From the IMG/VR virus record IMGVR_UViG_2703718823_000003: a DNA stretch of 7,738 bases; one strand, written 5' to 3'. The notes beneath the pieces were generated by a model, which had not been told where the DNA came from, ran no database searches, and saw only the letters and a list, made by a program, of their open reading frames with translations. This document shows, piece by piece, positions 379-7,433 of the stretch (positions within the stretch are counted from its first letter, which is position 1; every line of letters begins with the position of its first letter). The stretch is from a virus (taxonomy: Duplodnaviria; Heunggongvirae; Uroviricota; Caudoviricetes). A program made the position numbers and the translations under genes.

Positions 379-678
379 ATGAGAACATATTTATCTGGCT
401 TGACTGCCAGCGGCCCCGCTCGGCCTGAAATCCGCCCAGGAGATATTTTCAGAGATAACTACGGTGGCGTTGTTGAGATTAAAGGCGTGGCAGAACGGCG
501 CATTACCTACCGCCGTGAAGGCTACGAATATGATTGCGTGATGCCTGTTTATCAGTTCCAGCGTGATTTTTCTCTGGTACAGGCAGCGCCCCGCAGTAAA
601 CCAACCAGCAGGGAGAAAGCACTCGCCAATATTCAGGAAATAAGAAAGATGTTGAATGTATTCAGGGGTAAAAAATGA
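379..678 (+). CDS. hypothetical protein (99 aa), translationally coupled to the primase gene
   Basis: ATG 379 with GGGGA upstream. Its stop overlaps the primase start as ATGA (675-678). No recognisable motif. Confidence 0.55.
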   Translation: MRTYLSGLTASGPARPEIRPGDIFRDNYGGVVEIKGVAERRITYRREGYEYDCVMPVYQFQRDFSLVQAAPRSKPTSREKALANIQEIRKMLNVFRGKK

Positions 679-2985: not shown

Positions 2986-3396
2986 ATGACAGCACAGATA
3001 GCAGCTTACGGGCGGCTGGTGGACGACCCGCAGGTAAAACAGACCAGCAAGGGCACACCAATGACGCTGGCACGTATGGCGGTATCGTTGCCATGTAGTC
3101 AGGCGCAGGATGGGCAGGCGACGTTATGGCTATCGGTCATCGCATTTGGTAAGCAGGCCGACTTCCTGGCTAAACATCAAAAAGGCGACGTTGCCAGCGT
3201 ATCCGGCACGATGCAGGTCAGCCAGTGGACCGGACAGAACGGGGAAACGCGGCAGGGTTATCAGGTTATTGCAGACAGCGTAATCAGTGCCCGTGCGGCA
3301 CGTCCTGGCGGGAACAGACGCAAAACCACAGGCACACAGGGTAATCAGCCACCAGCGGGAGACGATGACCCCTACGGTGATGATATTCAGTTCTGA
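2986..3396 (+). CDS. ssb: Single-stranded DNA-binding protein (SSB family, OB fold) with a divergent acidic C-terminal tail, 136 aa
   Basis: Translation aligns by eye with E. coli SSB: an N-terminal OB-fold pattern (GRLVDDPQV.. / LWLSVIAFGKQAD.. / VSQWTGQNGETRQGYQVIADSV), a Gly/Gln/Pro-rich linker, and an acidic tail DDDPYGDDIQF (compare DFDDDIPF). Comparison is from memory. Confidence 0.8.
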   Translation: MTAQIAAYGRLVDDPQVKQTSKGTPMTLARMAVSLPCSQAQDGQATLWLSVIAFGKQADFLAKHQKGDVASVSGTMQVSQWTGQNGETRQGYQVIADSVISARAARPGGNRRKTTGTQGNQPPAGDDDPYGDDIQF

Positions 3397-3406
3397 GGGG
3401 GTGACG

Positions 3407-3679
3407 ATGGTACATGACCGCATAGCGGAGGAACTCGAGGCAAAAGGCTTTTACCGGAGGGCATCGGCGCGATGGGGTGAAGTCATGCTGCTGGTGGAGA
3501 CAGACAAGGAACGGCATCAGGTTACGATGCGACGGCTGGAATGTTCCAGGAAGGCACAGAAGCCACCGGAGCCGCCGGATAACTTCGGAGACCTGAGAAA
3601 GGCAGTAGATCGCACTTATGCTGAAATGGGTATAGATGGTGTAAGCGATGAAATATGGCGTAATTACCCAGACAGCTAA
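3407..3679 (+). CDS. hypothetical protein (90 aa from ATG 3407)
   Basis: GAGGGGG (3395-3401) sits 5 nt before ATG 3407. The track ORF starts at an upstream GTG (3287) inside the SSB gene, which is less likely. Followed by terminator hairpins. Confidence 0.6.
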   Translation: MVHDRIAEELEAKGFYRRASARWGEVMLLVETDKERHQVTMRRLECSRKAQKPPEPPDNFGDLRKAVDRTYAEMGIDGVSDEIWRNYPDS

Positions 3680-3919: not shown

Positions 3920-4126
3920 ATGGCTGAAGAGAAAAAAGGCGGTGTTTCGGTGTACATAAGCCCCGACATCGTGAAGGCGCTCAAGGAACGCCACCAGCAG
4001 AACGTAAAAGCAGGCATTGCGGCAGGACTTGATCCGCTGGCGATGGTTGAGCCGTCAACAGGCTGGCAGGTACGCGCCTATTTACGCGCGGCGCTGGGTA
4101 TGAATCAGGTTCACGGGGGTGAATAA
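3920..4126 (+). CDS. hypothetical protein (68 aa), first gene of the capsid operon
   Basis: AAGAGGA upstream of ATG 3920. Its stop overlaps the capsid gene start as TAATG (4124-4128). No recognisable motif. Confidence 0.6.
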   Translation: MAEEKKGGVSVYISPDIVKALKERHQQNVKAGIAAGLDPLAMVEPSTGWQVRAYLRAALGMNQVHGGE

Positions 4127-5181
4127 TGACAGTAAAAGCAATAGCACTTAACACTAACCAGCTTTTTGCGTACCTGAATCGCGAGGATATTGCGGAATTT
4201 AAATTCAGTCCGCTGTTTACCGCGCTGTTTTTCCCGAACGTGGCGACATTCAACACACAGGACATCATGTTAGATAACCTGGATATTGAAGAAGTCACTA
4301 TGTCGGCGTTTTGTTCGCCTATGGTGGGTAGCCAGGTTCAGCGCGATAAAGGGTACGAAACAAGCATTATTCGCCCTGGCTACATGAAGCCAAAACACGA
4401 AATCGATCCATTAAAAACAATAATGCGCATGGCTGGAGAAGATCCAGCACAGCTTAACGACCCTACCTACCGCCGTATGCGCCTGATTACTGGCAACATG
4501 CGCCGCCAGATAAACGCCATTAAAGCGCGCGTGGAATGGCTGGCGGTAAATGCGGTAACGACCGGAAAAAACATCATTGAGGGCGAAGGCATAGAGCGCT
4601 ATGAAATCGACTGGAAGATACCGGAAAAAAACATCATAGAGCAGGCCGACGGTAAAAAATGGTCCGAGCAGGATAAAGACATACACGATCCAATCTATGA
4701 CATTGAGCTATACGCAGATCAGGCAGGTTGCCCCGCCAACGTCATGATTATGGGCGTTGATGTATGGCGCATGTTACGCAGCTTTAAAAAATTCCGTGAG
4801 CTGTACGATCTTTCCCGTGGTTCAGAATCCGCCGCAGAGCTGGCATGTAAAAACCTGGGCGAAGTGGTGAGCTTTAAGGGCTATCTTGGTGATCTGGCCC
4901 TTATCGTCTATTCCGGCAAATACACTGACAGCGACGGTACCGAAAAATATTTCCTTGAGCCTGATTTGCTGGTCCTGGGCAACACCAACAATAAAGGGCT
5001 GGTGGCCTATGGTGCGATTATGGAACAGGAAGCGGTCAGAACTGGCGCAACGCAAAACATGTACTACCCGAAAAACTGGATTGAGGACGGCGATCCGGCG
5101 ATTGAGTACGTGCAGACACACAGCGCACCGCAGCCGGTACCGGCAGATATTCGCAAATTTGTTACCGTCAAAATTGGTTAA
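4126..5181 (+). CDS. Major capsid protein, lambda gpE-like family, 351 aa
   Basis: Translation shares multiple collinear blocks with lambda gpE as recalled: EFKFSPLF..LFF (lambda KFKFDPLF..LFF), PGYMKPKHEI (PGYVKPKHEV), DPTYRRMRLI (DPAYRRRRII), WSEQDKDIHDP.YDIELYA (WSKRDKSTYDP.DDIEAYA), VSFKGYLGDLALIVYSGKY (VSYKGMYGDVAIVVYSGQY), VLGNT..GL.AYG (VLGNT..GL.TYG), YPKNW...GDPA (YPKNW..TGDPA). Length is close to lambda gpE (341 aa). Confidence 0.9.
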   Translation: MTVKAIALNTNQLFAYLNREDIAEFKFSPLFTALFFPNVATFNTQDIMLDNLDIEEVTMSAFCSPMVGSQVQRDKGYETSIIRPGYMKPKHEIDPLKTIMRMAGEDPAQLNDPTYRRMRLITGNMRRQINAIKARVEWLAVNAVTTGKNIIEGEGIERYEIDWKIPEKNIIEQADGKKWSEQDKDIHDPIYDIELYADQAGCPANVMIMGVDVWRMLRSFKKFRELYDLSRGSESAAELACKNLGEVVSFKGYLGDLALIVYSGKYTDSDGTEKYFLEPDLLVLGNTNNKGLVAYGAIMEQEAVRTGATQNMYYPKNWIEDGDPAIEYVQTHSAPQPVPADIRKFVTVKIG

Positions 5182-5192
5182 CGGGGGATTCT

Positions 5193-5528
5193 ATGAACAC
5201 TCCATACGTTGAGTTATTTGCAGGCAGTCAGCAGGTATCAACGACGCTGGTACATTTTGCCGCTGATGCTGGCGTTATTCAGGAATTTACCCCGCTGATG
5301 CTGGCGGACAATGGCGAGTTTAAGCCGTGGGATGGTCAGGAATCTGGCAAGGCTGTTTATCTGACTTCGTATCCTGTGGACACGTCAAAGCAGAAATCAG
5401 CACAGTGTTACAAGACGGGGATATTCAATATTGCCGCCGTTAACTGGCCTGAGAGCGTCGACACCGATGCGAAAAAATGCGCCGCCTTTGCGGGTTCCGG
5501 CGTATCAGTTCAGCCGCTGGCCCGATAA
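5193..5528 (+). CDS. Head decoration protein, lambda gpD-like family, 111 aa
   Basis: Blocks shared with lambda gpD as recalled: TPLML, WDG, YKTGIF (YKSGTF), WPE, KK.AAFAGSG (KKRTAFAGT). Length matches gpD (110 aa). GGGGGA RBS 4 nt before the ATG. Confidence 0.85.
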   Translation: MNTPYVELFAGSQQVSTTLVHFAADAGVIQEFTPLMLADNGEFKPWDGQESGKAVYLTSYPVDTSKQKSAQCYKTGIFNIAAVNWPESVDTDAKKCAAFAGSGVSVQPLAR

Positions 5529-5540
5529 GCAGGGGGAACG

Positions 5541-5954
5541 ATGGCAACGAATGAAAGCATCATGGCGCTACCGCTGGCGAGTAAATTTAAAGAAGAAGCG
5601 CGGGCAATGGCTGACAGAGGTTTATCAACATACGAGGCCGTATATCAACTCAACAAACTGGAAGAGCAGGACAAGCCGCGCGCTGATGCGATTATGGCGC
5701 TTCATGAGCATAAAGACTATCAGCCGCTGTTACGTGCAATGGCAAACGTGCCATGTATTAGCGTCGATAATGCTCGTGAAATCCTGAACATGACCATAGA
5801 GCAGGAGCGCCCAAAGGTTGCACCAGAGCTTACCGCAGCCTTTGAAAACTTTATGGACATGCACAGCCCGCAAGCCGTATCAGCTGGCATGGCATACGAT
5901 GGCAGAAACCAGGGCGATGACGGCGACATCGATCGCATACTGAAAACCATCTGA
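5541..5954 (+). CDS. hypothetical protein (137 aa), last gene of the capsid operon, directly upstream of cos
   Basis: AGGGGGA RBS before ATG 5541. Acidic C-terminus. No motif recognised. Followed by a hairpin and T-run. Confidence 0.65.
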   Translation: MATNESIMALPLASKFKEEARAMADRGLSTYEAVYQLNKLEEQDKPRADAIMALHEHKDYQPLLRAMANVPCISVDNAREILNMTIEQERPKVAPELTAAFENFMDMHSPQAVSAGMAYDGRNQGDDGDIDRILKTI

Positions 5955-5983: not shown

Positions 5984-6211
5984 ACGGGTCCTTTCCGGCA
6001 TATGGACCCGTTACGGGGCGGCGACCTCGCGGTTTTTCGCTATTTATGAGATTTTTTGAGGGGGTGGTTGTTGTTTAATTGTTTGGTATATCTAATTGAT
6101 AAGTAAGGTAAAAATAAAATAAATACAACAACCTTACGATGTATTTTGATGTCATTAATGTGAAAAAATTCAATGATATCAAATGGTTTTGTAAAAACAC
6201 ATGGTTGTTGT
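5984..6211 (+). other. cos site 1 (lambda-type cosQ-flank, cosN, cosB-like region), + orientation
   Basis: TTTACGGGTCCTTTCCGG...GTTACG | GGGCGGCGACCT | CGCGG matches the lambda right-end/cosN/left-end junction as recalled; the 12-nt cohesive-end sequence GGGCGGCGACCT is at 6016-6027. Downstream there are three copies of GGTTGTTGT (6066-6074 direct, 6125-6133 inverted, 6203-6211 direct), spaced like lambda cosB R3/R2/R1. Confidence 0.7.
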
Positions 6212-6404
6212 ATCGCGTATTTGATGGCGTAACAGAAAGTGATTTTTAACTTTACCGCTCTGTAACTACGGATTATTCCATGCTGGCACGGAGAACGGCT
6301 ACGGCATGACGCCACCCAGCCTATACAGAACAGTAAAGCCGATAAATTGTTAATCACGCGCAGCAATGCGTGTGATTTTTGCACACTTCCGGTTAACTGG
6401 TACG

Positions 6405-6590
6405 ATGTCCGGTTTTAGTGTCTGTTTTTTGCGCATGTCCGGTTCATGGAAAGCATGTTTTTATATTTTTCATATGGTTAACTTGCAGAGAAACCGGACA
6501 TGGATCCCGGAAAATTTTCATAAATAGTGAAAACGCGCGAGGTCGCCGCCCCGTAACGGGCCATAATTCCAGGAAGGACCCGACGACACC
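6405..6590 (-). other. cos site 2 (lambda-type cosQ-flank, cosN, cosB-like region), inverted orientation
   Basis: The reverse complement of 6500-6590 reads ..GGGTCCTTCC.GG....CCCGTTACG | GGGCGGCGACCT | CGCGCGTTTTCACTATTTATGAAAATTTTCCGG, almost identical to the lambda cos left end as recalled; cosN is at 6540-6551 on the minus strand. Three copies of ATGTCCGGTT / AACCGGACAT lie at 6492-6501, 6435-6444 and 6405-6414, at R3/R2/R1-like distances. Confidence 0.7.
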
Positions 6591-6615
6591 AGACTATCAG
6601 AACGATGGGGGCACA

Positions 6616-6897
6616 ATGACAGAAGCCGAACTACTGCGATTAATCCGTCGCGTTGCCGGAATCAGCCAGCAGGCTGACGAACAGGCCACGCAGCCGGACA
6701 GCGTGACAGCCGAAAATTATGTGCGTGTTGTTGCGGAGGTGATGCGCCGTGATGGTATCCAGCTTAATGATGCGGATATGCGCGACATACGGATCCGCGT
6801 TCTTGAAATGCTGGCCTACCGTCGCCGCGTGCAGACGTACAGGGAAAAAGCAAAAATAACGTACCAGTGGAAGAAGCCGGAGCGATTACGGCGGTAA
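6616..6897 (+). CDS. hypothetical protein (93 aa), Arg-rich
   Basis: ATG 6616 with a GGGGG stretch about 5 nt upstream. The track ORF extends upstream to GTG 6418, through the cos sequence, which is unlikely. Ends at TAA 6895-6897. No motif recognised. Confidence 0.55.
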   Translation: MTEAELLRLIRRVAGISQQADEQATQPDSVTAENYVRVVAEVMRRDGIQLNDADMRDIRIRVLEMLAYRRRVQTYREKAKITYQWKKPERLRR

Positions 6898-6917
6898 CTT
6901 GCTGATATTCCCGATAA

Positions 6918-7157
6918 CGCAAAATTGCGCTCTGTCCTAACCCGTTGATATTTTCGGGAACAGCCAACGGCTGAGGCCGGAACAACGATTATCTTTCAGA
7001 TAGTCAGAGCTACGAAATTTTCGTAGTTTAATTACTCGCCAGTTTATCGTTAACCCGTTGATATTTTCGGAAACCTCAATTTGAGGAAGTCGGCGCGGTA
7101 ACTCGCTGAACTTTAAGCAAAGCGCAAAATTGCGCTTGCTGAATAATCATTATGATT
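6918..7157. repeat. Cluster of direct repeats and dyad symmetries (candidate regulatory region)
   Basis: 20-bp direct repeat TAACCCGTTGATATTTTCGG at 6938-6957 and 7051-7070. Dyad CGCAA-AA-TTGCG at 6918-6929 and, extended, at 7121-7136. Palindromes CTACGAAA-T-TTTCGTAG (7010-7026), CCTCAA-T-TTGAGG (7074-7086), AATCAT-T-ATGATT (7145-7157). Confidence 0.5.
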
Positions 7158-7213
7158 ACGCAGATGATTAAGGAATGACCGAAGGCGGAAATTCGCCTGT
7201 GGTTAATGGGGGA

Positions 7214-7433
7214 GTTGCAGATCTGCAACTCGACCATGAAACTACGGAAACTACCCGTAGTTTGGGTAGTAAGAGTAACACCCAGATTTTGGGGCTTACT
7301 CGTGATACCCAAATTTGGGGTATCGGTGGCAACCATAACGACTTTCGTTACGGTTGATGCTTTTACCCCATTGGTGGAGGCTGGGCGGCCTGCTGTGGGC
7401 TTTTCCACCATTGGTGGAAAGGTGCAGATCTGG
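7214..7433. other. Palindrome-rich, potentially highly structured segment (candidate ncRNA or protein-recognition DNA)
   Basis: Perfect 16-bp palindrome GTTGCAGATCTGCAAC (7214-7229) with a related copy TGCAGATCTG (7423-7432). Hairpin AAACTACGG / CCGTAGTTT (7239-7263) with a competing ACTACCC / GGGTAGT pairing. Hairpin GATACCC-AAATTTG-GGGTATC (7304-7324). Hairpin TAACGA-CTT-TCGTTA (7336-7350). CCATTGGTGG (7368-7377) can pair with CCACCATTGG (7405-7414). Confidence 0.3.

What the first reader, a model, noticed from the sequence alone, without database searches (positions are those of the whole stretch)
6616..6897. 93-aa Arg-rich ORF on the outer side of cos2
The gene lies just outside the inverted cos pair and upstream of the repeat/dyad cluster. 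Its position in a packaging region suggests a packaging-accessory role; its position before a repeat cluster suggests a DNA-binding regulator. Either way it is an uncharacterised small protein in a hotspot-like position.
Basis: inference. Interest (0 to 1): 0.35.

Follow-up and report, generated by a model that had tools for sequence, protein, structure and literature searches.

The report
Conserved small protein of phage satellites
The 93-codon reading frame is a real, well-conserved gene that closes the right-hand end of a common family of E. coli phage satellites (PICIs); published deletions show lambda and phi80 can spread the satellite without it, and its function is still unknown.

Summary
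The ORF at 6616-6897 is real. It has 93 codons, 16 of them Arg, pI 10.2, a G-rich ribosome-binding site, and dN/dS of 0.14-0.30 in frame against about 1-2 out of frame. The window is a phage-inducible chromosomal island (PICI) about 90% identical to the model element EcCICFT073. Primer mapping shows the ORF is that element's gene c1505 (PHROG 1561, unknown function). It occurs in 1567 of 5426 complete E. coli genomes, in Shigella, Salmonella and Citrobacter, and in none of 50,697 phage genomes. It is always the last gene before the cargo/attR region. It follows at least six unrelated packaging modules, and its alleles do not track the module. Published work overexpressed c1505 without blocking lambda. 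That work also used an island deleted for c1504-c1507 as the transfer-proficient "wild type". An essential or helper-specific packaging role is therefore unlikely. The downstream "repeat cluster" is an array of host IHF-consensus sites, each followed by a variable hairpin, so it does not need this protein to explain it. No fold or family match was found. My best guess, at low confidence, is a late-expressed, basic, nucleic-acid- or partner-docking accessory that works through an invariant C-terminal tail, Y-x-W-K-K-P-E-R-L-R-R. This is an ordinary, already catalogued hypothetical gene.

The parts
6616..6897 (+). ORF93: 93-aa Arg-rich protein plus stop codon. It is the homologue of EcCICFT073 c1505 and of EcCIEDL933 gene 1795 (the number is inferred by counting), and a member of PHROG 1561.
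6607..6611 (+). GGGGG run 4 nt upstream of the ATG, a likely Shine-Dalgarno sequence. A 4-codon mini-ORF (6605-6619) ends in an ATGA overlap with the start codon.
   Evidence: read directly from the sequence
6862..6894 (+). Codons 83-93, Y-Q-W-K-K-P-E-R-L-R-R. This is the most conserved part of the protein. It is (nearly) invariant from E. coli to Salmonella, yet synonymous changes occur within it.
6511..6582 (-). cos2: an inverted lambda-type cosQ/cosN immediately upstream of the ORF. It is a neighbour, not part of the gene, and it is absent between terS/terL and the ORF in other PICI types.
6895..7141 (+). Array of four units (starting at 6895, 6938, 7051 and 7099). Each unit is an IHF-consensus-like motif, TAAC-YYR-YTGAT-W, followed after about 8-11 nt by a short hairpin or palindrome of variable sequence. 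The first unit overlaps the ORF stop codon.

Best explanation
Identity (high confidence, about 0.95). ORF93 is a genuine protein-coding backbone gene of enterobacterial phage-inducible chromosomal islands, the c1505 family (PHROG 1561). It is the invariant last cistron after the exchangeable packaging module and directly before the IHF-site/hairpin array, the cargo region and attR. Mechanism (inferred, low confidence, about 0.3). It is made late, as the 3' cistron of the packaging operon. In some islands it is separated from terS or terL by only 2-13 nt. It most likely acts as a small basic alpha-helical adaptor. Its invariant aromatic/basic C-terminal tail (Y-x-W-K-K-P-E-R-L-R-R) would dock onto nucleic acid or onto a partner that is the same in all these islands, meaning a host factor or satellite DNA/RNA rather than a helper-specific terminase or capsid protein. 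It is an accessory function, not a core one. It is not needed for induction, excision, replication, cos1/RppA-dependent packaging or transfer by lambda or phi80. What is shown: the gene is real, its distribution, its synteny, the lack of co-variation with packaging modules, and its dispensability as read from published constructs. What is inferred: late co-expression, nucleic-acid or partner docking, and the role of the C-terminal tail.
For: The window is about 90% identical to EcCICFT073. Published primers place c1505 on the ORF93 homologue. Purifying selection acts in frame only. The C-terminal tail is invariant although synonymous changes occur in it. The gene is in 1567 of 5426 E. coli genomes, with up to 6 copies per genome. 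The whole family collapses to 36 representatives at 50% identity among 1.84 billion proteins. Members occur in Salmonella and Citrobacter, and none in 50,697 phage genomes. The gene is always last, after each of these modules: rppA, no rpp, Nu1-like TerS, DUF1441 TerS with a 2-nt gap, a ClpP/MCP fusion only, cf-PICI TerS-TerL with 5-13 nt gaps, and an unrelated Salmonella module. Allele identity does not follow module type. The protein has pI 10.2 and is 17% Arg. The AlphaFold2 model has three helices plus a C-terminal tail. No sigma-70-like promoter lies upstream.
Against: No homology or fold match to any characterised protein supports nucleic-acid binding. The model is only moderately confident (pLDDT 71, pTM 0.48). 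Expression was not measured. In this window a terminator-like hairpin (6355-6372) and cos2 lie between the upstream genes and the ORF, so co-transcription here is an assumption. Dispensability is inferred from a multi-gene deletion used as a marker site, not from a dedicated c1505 mutant, and I could not read the transfer titres because they are in figures.
Confidence: 0.3

Rival explanations
1. Protein-protein effector. The invariant C-terminal peptide docks on a conserved host protein, or on a protein of phages other than lambda and phi80. Possible roles are interference with competing phages, counter-defence in a new host, or modulation of host physiology, as seen with the PICI-encoded regulators PerC/Pch and RgdR.
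For: The C-terminal tail is a short, probably unstructured, invariant motif. The gene is independent of packaging module and integration site. It borders the region expected to hold immune or virulence cargo (Ail/Lom and other cargo lie after it in L016). PICIs do encode small basic host regulators.
Against: There is no PADLOC hit. Overexpressed c1505 had no effect on lambda plaques. A universal, non-variable gene is unlike typical defence cargo. No partner is known.
Confidence: 0.25
2. Packaging accessory. The protein helps terminase assemble or act at the satellite's cos/pac site, for example at cos2 or with helpers other than lambda and phi80.
For: It is always adjacent to terS, terL or cos, and is almost translationally coupled to them in several islands. 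In Salmonella it is preceded by TerS-type repeats. It is a basic protein next to IHF sites, and IHF is a known terminase cofactor in lambda (established knowledge).
Against: An island lacking cos2, c1505 and the downstream repeats is the transfer-proficient reference strain. The gene accompanies mechanistically different terminases (Nu1-type, DUF1441, P27 TerS + TerL + HNH) and islands with no terS at all, without co-variation. It shows no similarity to Rpp, Nu1, the gpA N-terminus or DUF1441. It was not treated as part of the packaging module in the cf-PICI mutagenesis.
Confidence: 0.15
3. Sequence-specific regulator of the downstream repeat/dyad cluster. The protein would bind the 6895-7140 array as DNA, or as RNA in its own 3' UTR, to control read-through into the cargo genes or int.
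For: The ORF and the array co-occur on the same strand in 13 of 16 loci, including the Salmonella homologue at 48% identity. The hairpin stems co-vary, and G.U pairs favour the ORF strand. The protein is Arg-rich.
Against: The conserved linear motif is the IHF consensus WATCAANNNNTTR. The palindromes have no common sequence that a specific binder could read. The loops are not boxB-like. L010 has a different repeat (GTGACA) directly after the gene. No HTH, RHH or known RNA-binding fold was detected.
Confidence: 0.1
4. Not a functional protein. On this view the frame is kept open by constraints on overlapping DNA elements, or it is an annotation artefact.
For: No function or phenotype has been reported. 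Many truncated copies exist among the 50%-identity representatives.
Against: dN/dS is 0.14-0.30 in frame only. Length is conserved in hundreds of clusters. Synonymous variation is normal across the gene, including the 3' end.
Confidence: 0.02

Closest known systems
EcCICFT073 c1505 (RefSeq WP_000133413.1, 'hypothetical protein'); PHROG family phrog_1561
   Same: 87% amino-acid identity, the same 93-aa length, the same position just outside cos2, and the same downstream IHF-like motif.
   Different: In this window the rppA gene that precedes cos2 in EcCICFT073 is missing. c1505 itself has no assigned function: it was only cloned into pBAD18 and included in a marker-replacement deletion.
Rpp proteins (RppA/B/C) of cos-type E. 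coli PICIs (Fillol-Salom et al. 2019, PMC6739421)
   Same: Both are small PICI-encoded proteins next to the cos sites. Rpp is the only protein of this region with a demonstrated packaging role.
   Different: There is no sequence similarity (BLASTP E 4.4). Rpp is 144-153 aa with a TerS-like winged-helix DNA-binding domain, lies between cos1 and cos2, blocks lambda and is required for transfer. ORF93 has none of these properties.
RgdR / ECs1581 (DUF4222), a PICI-encoded small basic regulator of LEE and motility (Flockhart et al. 2012, PMC3378721)
   Same: Similar size and charge (99 aa, pI 10.1), PICI-encoded, no known fold, and non-specific DNA binding reported. It is a functional analogy for what a small basic PICI protein can do.
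   Different: It is a different gene. RgdR corresponds to window 379-678 (DUF4222; the CFT073 orthologue is c1493). ORF93 has no DUF4222 match.
Recombination directionality factors / small multifunctional phage DNA-binding proteins (lambda Xis, P2 Cox, AlpA)
   Same: They are small basic proteins encoded on integrative elements that act next to IHF sites near att arms (established knowledge).
   Different: The model is all-alpha with no wing and gives no Pfam or PHROG excisionase hit. The array lies 600-800 bp from the island end. An island lacking the gene still excises and transfers.

Membership tests
c1505 / PHROG 1561 family (PICI right-end small basic protein) | Full-length sequence match to the family profile | tested here: met
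   phrog_1561 matches residues 1-93 of 93, E 2.2e-55. The protein is 87% identical to the CFT073 protein.
c1505 / PHROG 1561 family (PICI right-end small basic protein) | Synteny: last gene after the packaging module, before the cargo/attR region of a PICI | tested here: met
   The position is the same in the 15 loci of 13 strains with informative annotation.
c1505 / PHROG 1561 family (PICI right-end small basic protein) | C-terminal Y-x-W-K-K-P-E-R-L-R-R motif | tested here: met
   The motif is present at residues 83-93 and is invariant or nearly invariant across the alignment.
Phage-inducible chromosomal island (the element that holds the ORF) | Primase/replicase with an adjacent origin, no tail or lysis genes, cos sites related to the helper's, and close relation to a proven PICI | tested here: met
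   A D5_N/DUF5906 primase lies at 675-2423. Lambda-type cosN sites are present. The window is 90% identical to EcCICFT073 over 86% of its length. int and alpA lie outside the window, so they were seen only in related loci.
Rpp (redirecting phage packaging) proteins | TerS-like N-terminal winged-helix DNA-binding domain, and sequence similarity to RppA/B/C | tested here: not met
   BLASTP against RppA gives E 4.4. The model has three helices and no wing.
Rpp (redirecting phage packaging) proteins | Blocks lambda/phi80 reproduction and is required for island transfer | tested here: not met
   This comes from the literature, for the orthologue. Only c1503 blocked lambda among the cloned genes, which included c1505. 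The c1504-07::cat island is the transfer-proficient reference.
Terminase small subunit (lambda Nu1 / phrog_57; DUF1441 / phrog_141) | Profile similarity to TerS families | tested here: not met
   hhalign probabilities are at most 1.2% against Nu1, the PICI TerS and DUF1441. No PHROG TerS hit was found.
RgdR / DUF4222 | DUF4222 domain; 99 aa with an RGD motif at residues 20-22 | tested here: not met
   ORF93 has no Pfam hit. The DUF4222 gene is window 379-678, which matches the published description of RgdR.
Excisionase / RDF (Xis, AlpA, Cox) | Winged-helix fold and a requirement for excision | tested here: not met
   No family hit was found. The model is all-alpha. An island lacking the orthologue still transfers (indirect evidence).
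N/Nun-type arginine-rich-motif RNA-binding proteins | N-terminal ARM that binds a boxB hairpin with a GNRA-like loop next to boxA | tested here: inconclusive
   The Arg-rich stretch is C-terminal (residues 56-93). The downstream hairpins have A/U loops and no boxA. No binding test is possible with these tools.

The most novel reading that the evidence does not exclude
ORF93 and the IHF-site/hairpin array that starts at its stop codon form one conserved 'right-end module' of enterobacterial PICIs. In this reading the Arg-rich protein binds the structured array, either as RNA in its own 3' UTR or as bent DNA together with IHF. That would control transcription or stability across the junction into the cargo region and, in the excised circle, into attP-int. 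Alternatively it would mark the recombination boundary at which packaging modules and cargo are swapped between satellites.
Probability: 0.08. Interest if true: 0.6.

Novelty: already known. Interest (0 to 1): 0.27.

Why it matters
PICIs move virulence and anti-phage genes between enterobacteria and are being engineered as delivery vehicles. This gene is present in about 29% of complete E. coli genomes. It is the only constant gene at the junction between the exchangeable packaging module and the cargo region, yet it has no assigned function. It is a useful marker for the right boundary of PICIs and of their cargo hotspot. A dedicated mutant would be cheap to make in the existing EcCICFT073 and EcCIEDL933 systems. 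As it stands, the finding itself is an ordinary conserved hypothetical gene in a well-studied element.

Tried and rejected
1. Family and structure searches found nothing. Pfam, NCBIfam and PADLOC gave no hits. PDB sequence searches with the protein and with a profile gave only noise. Foldseek against PDB and BFVD with the AlphaFold2 model gave nothing below E 0.5.

2. I tested whether ORF93 is a split-off TerS C-terminal domain, a mimic of the gpA N-terminus, or an Rpp relative. hhalign and BLASTP found no similarity.

3. I tested whether ORF93 is RgdR. It is not. RgdR is the DUF4222 gene at window 379-678.

4. I tested whether ORF93 is the 'hypothetical gene 1792' whose mutation impairs cf-PICI transfer. 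It is not. Counting from MCP = gene 1786, gene 1792 is the small ORF between HNH and terS, and ORF93 is gene 1795. This relies on consecutive numbering.

5. I tested whether the invariant 3' end reflects an overlapping DNA/RNA element. It does not: synonymous differences there are as frequent as elsewhere in the gene.

6. I considered an RDF role. The published deletion and the all-alpha model argue against it.

7. An alignment-based scan of 185,579 species-representative genomes returned only one locus, in Shigella. A first attempt failed because the alignment was too divergent.

8. I did not run the formal pair-count tool on the downstream hairpins. MAFFT could not put loops of odd and even length in one register, so I used folding energies against shuffles instead.

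9. A literature search for 'c1505' found nothing in main texts.

Full report
**The observation**

The window holds an ATG-initiated ORF at 6616-6897 on the + strand. The ORF listing reports it as the 3' part of a longer GTG-initiated frame, 6418-6897. All homologues start M-T-E at the codon equivalent to 6616. A GGGGG run sits 4 nt upstream. The product has 93 residues, 16 of them Arg, and pI 10.2.

The ORF lies 33 nt outside an inverted repeat with arms at 5985-6056 and 6511-6582 (72 nt, 83% complementary). Both arms carry a lambda-type cosN: GGGCGGCGACCTCGCG at 6016-6031 (+) and 6536-6551 (-). The stop codon of the ORF overlaps the first unit of a repeat cluster.

**It is a real gene**

- Pairwise dN/dS among seven homologues is 0.14-0.30 in the annotated frame and about 1-2 in the other two frames.
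- The protein matches phrog_1561 (unknown function) over its whole length, E 2.2e-55.
- It has 967 homologous 90%-identity clusters, nearly all 93-94 aa long and named 'hypothetical protein'.
- Its DNA is found in 1567 of 5426 complete E. coli genomes, at 2010 places and up to 6 per genome.
- The family is narrow. It has only 36 representatives at 50% identity among 1.84 billion proteins.
- The most distant members are in Salmonella Give (48% identity) and Citrobacter.
- A scan of species-representative genomes returned only Shigella flexneri.
- tblastn against 50,697 phage genomes found nothing, so the gene belongs to satellites, not to phages.

**What the element is**

The window is 90% identical over 86% of its length to E. 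coli CFT073 1381936-1389176. That region is EcCICFT073, the model Gram-negative phage-inducible chromosomal island. Reading left to right, the window holds:

- a DUF4222 gene at 379-678
- a D5_N/DUF5906 primase at 675-2423
- SSB at 2986-3396
- PerC at 3407-3679
- a lambda gpE-like capsid gene at 4126-5181
- a gpD-like decoration gene at 5193-5528
- a 137-aa gene at 5541-5954
- cos1, then cos2 (inverted), then ORF93

The two cos sites are already published. cos1 is needed for transfer by lambda and phi80. Its cosB is read by a heterocomplex of helper TerS with the island protein RppA (c1503), whose gene lies between cos1 and cos2.

**Which published gene it is**

I mapped the oligonucleotides of Table S5 of Fillol-Salom et al. 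2019 onto the CFT073 locus.

- The 'c1505' clone spans L001 12381-12754 and so contains the ORF93 homologue (12438-12719). ORF93 is c1505.
- c1504 is an ORF inside the cosB side of cos2.
- c1506 is an antisense ORF overlapping c1505.

Two published facts follow. First, all genes after the origin were expressed from pBAD18, and only c1503 reduced lambda plaques. pBAD18-c1505 is in the plasmid list. Second, the marked island 'EcCICFT073 c1504-07::cat' replaces L001 12168-13065 with cat. That interval holds cos2, c1505 and the downstream repeats. This island serves as the wild-type reference in the 2019 transfer experiments. The gene is therefore not needed for induction, excision, replication, cos1/RppA-dependent packaging or transfer by lambda or phi80. 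This is indirect evidence: it is a multi-gene replacement, and the titres are only in figures I could not read.

**Context elsewhere**

I read 15 related loci from 13 strains. In every one the gene is the last gene of the island, before the cargo region or attR. What precedes it differs widely:

| Preceding module | Example loci |
|---|---|
| rppA, then cos2 | CFT073 |
| an rpp-like 146-aa HTH protein | SW4848, P393-F10 |
| no rpp at all | this window; both islands of STEC2018-607 |
| Nu1-like TerS of 180-194 aa, then cos2 | FRIK2533, STEC313 |
| a different cos site and a DUF1441-type TerS, whose stop is 2 nt from the ORF start (TGAtaATG), with no cos2 | EJN001, Res13, AH19E045 |
| only a ClpP/capsid fusion gene | 2013C-4081 |
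| full capsid-forming PICI module ending in HNH, P27-type TerS and TerL, with 5-13 nt gaps | E203449; EDL933 (the prototype cf-PICI EcCIEDL933) |
| an unrelated five-gene module plus a TerS-like protein | Salmonella Give |

Allele similarity does not follow module type. The two cf-PICI alleles are 77% identical to each other. They are 89-92% and 85-89% identical to alleles from cos-type islands. A partner specific to one terminase or capsid system is therefore unlikely. The gene behaves as a backbone gene that marks the right border of the exchangeable packaging module. In the cf-PICI literature the region after the packaging operon is described as variable and expected to hold immune systems.

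**The protein**

No Pfam, NCBIfam or PADLOC family matches. No PDB sequence matches. AlphaFold2 run on a 14-sequence alignment gives a moderately confident model (pLDDT 71, pTM 0.48). It has three helices (residues 3-14, 32-45 and 52-82), a disordered linker and a C-terminal tail. Foldseek against PDB and BFVD finds nothing below E 0.5.

The best-conserved part is the C-terminal tail, Y-x-W-K-K-P-E-R-L-R-R, together with R45, G47, L50, N51, D54, I58, R59, R61, L66 and R70. Synonymous differences in codons 81-93 (0.26-0.44) are as frequent as in the rest of the gene (0.10-0.37). The tail is therefore conserved as a peptide, not as a DNA element.

**The downstream repeat cluster**

The cluster at 6895-7140 consists of four units. 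Each unit has the linear motif TAAC-YYR-YTGAT-W, then after about 8-11 nt a short hairpin or palindrome.

- The linear motif is the reverse complement of the IHF consensus WATCAANNNNTTR (consensus from established knowledge). Exact consensus hits in the window are at 6938, 7051 and 7700, the last at the island's right junction. In the Salmonella locus all five hits lie in the post-ORF array.
- Across about 220 kb of fetched loci, the stricter motif occurs only within about 400 nt after the ORF, always on the ORF strand, in 13 of 16 loci and with up to 7 copies.
- The hairpin stems differ between copies but stay complementary. Examples are CGCAA/TTGCG, CAGCC/GGCTG, CCTCA/TGAGG, GGCTCA/TGAGCC and GGTCCA/TGGGCC, the last with a G.U pair.
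- Mean folding energy is -10.5 kcal/mol against -4.4 for shuffles. The G.U cases favour the ORF strand.

The cluster thus resembles a BIME/RIP-like mosaic of IHF sites and palindromic units. It does not need ORF93 to be explained. One homologue (E203449) is instead followed by GTGACA repeats spaced 10 bp apart.

**Ideas tested and dropped**

- ORF93 shows no similarity to RppA, lambda Nu1, the gpA N-terminus, the PICI TerS or DUF1441.
- It is not RgdR. RgdR is the 99-aa DUF4222 protein, whose CFT073 orthologue is c1493.
- It is not the 'hypothetical gene 1792' whose mutation impairs cf-PICI transfer. Counting from the capsid gene, 1786, along the EDL933 locus, gene 1792 is the small ORF between HNH and terS, and ORF93 is 1795.
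- No sigma-70-like promoter lies upstream. Expression probably depends on read-through or on an activator. I could not test this.

**Interpretation**

The identity of the gene is settled. Its mechanism is not. The evidence argues against an essential or helper-specific packaging factor and against a sequence-specific regulator of the repeat cluster.

My preferred reading (about 0.3) is a late-expressed, basic, helical accessory protein. Its invariant aromatic/basic tail would dock on nucleic acid or on a partner common to all these islands. A protein-protein effector aimed at the host or at other phages is nearly as likely (about 0.25). A conditional packaging role with untested helpers remains possible (about 0.15).

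This is an already catalogued hypothetical gene in a well-studied satellite. It is worth a dedicated mutant, but it is not surprising.

Noticed in passing
window 6056-6510: This island has no rpp gene between cos1 and cos2. Positions 6056-6321 are 85% identical to the cosB side of cos2 of another PICI (SW4848), in the orientation that serves cos1 here. The interval therefore consists of two cosB-like regions facing each other. Each carries its own triple repeat: GGTTGTTGT at 6066 (+), 6125 (-) and 6203 (+), and ACCGGACAT at 6405 (-), 6435 (-) and 6493 (+). Each is expected about 0.1 times by chance. This suggests direct recognition by two different helper TerS proteins without Rpp. The 6050-6320 segment matches in 349 E. 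coli genomes, and 57 of them hold at least 80% of it.
   Followed up: partly
window 6895-7141: Four units, each an IHF-consensus motif followed by a hairpin whose stem sequence varies but stays complementary (with G.U pairs on the + strand). The same array follows the ORF in 13 of 16 loci, with up to 7 units in EcCIEDL933. It looks like a BIME/RIP-type mosaic specific to PICI right ends. Its function is unknown.
   Followed up: partly
window 7203-7330 (also L005, L006, L009, L011 and L012 directly after the ORF; absent from CFT073): A conserved non-coding block packed with perfect or near-perfect palindromes: GAGTTGCAGATCTGCAACTC, AAACTACGG...CCGTAGTTT and ATACCCAAATTTGGGGTAT. It has no Rfam match and no annotated gene. 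It could be a structured RNA or a set of operators.
   Followed up: no
window 379-678: This DUF4222 gene is the orthologue of RgdR (ECs1581 / c1493), the PICI-encoded regulator of LEE type III secretion and motility. This allele has P-G-D instead of the functionally important R-G-D at residues 20-22.
   Followed up: partly
window 5541-5954: The 137-aa gene (the c1501 homologue, phrog_1999) also matches the C-terminal part of head-maturation-protease families (phrog_53, E 1e-10). This suggests a scaffold/Nu3-like remnant next to the gpE- and gpD-like genes, for which the literature reports no phenotype.
   Followed up: no
window about 2430-2680: Directly after the primase gene there is a dense set of direct and inverted copies of GGTAGAGG / CCTCTACC-like words. 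This is presumably the iteron-type replication origin described for these islands. I saw it by eye only.
   Followed up: no
L002 and L004 (E. coli STEC2018-607): One strain carries two near-identical rpp-less islands at different sites, tRNA-Pro/yejM and tqsA/mdtJ. Window 6380-6900 is 100% identical to the second. The window's right end past 7515 instead resembles CFT073, so the window's element is a mosaic.
   Followed up: partly
L005 (E. coli EJN001): Here the island that carries the ORF93 homologue is inserted in a prophage gpA (terminase large subunit) gene. This is an example of the published 'helper-embedded PICI' arrangement.
   Followed up: no
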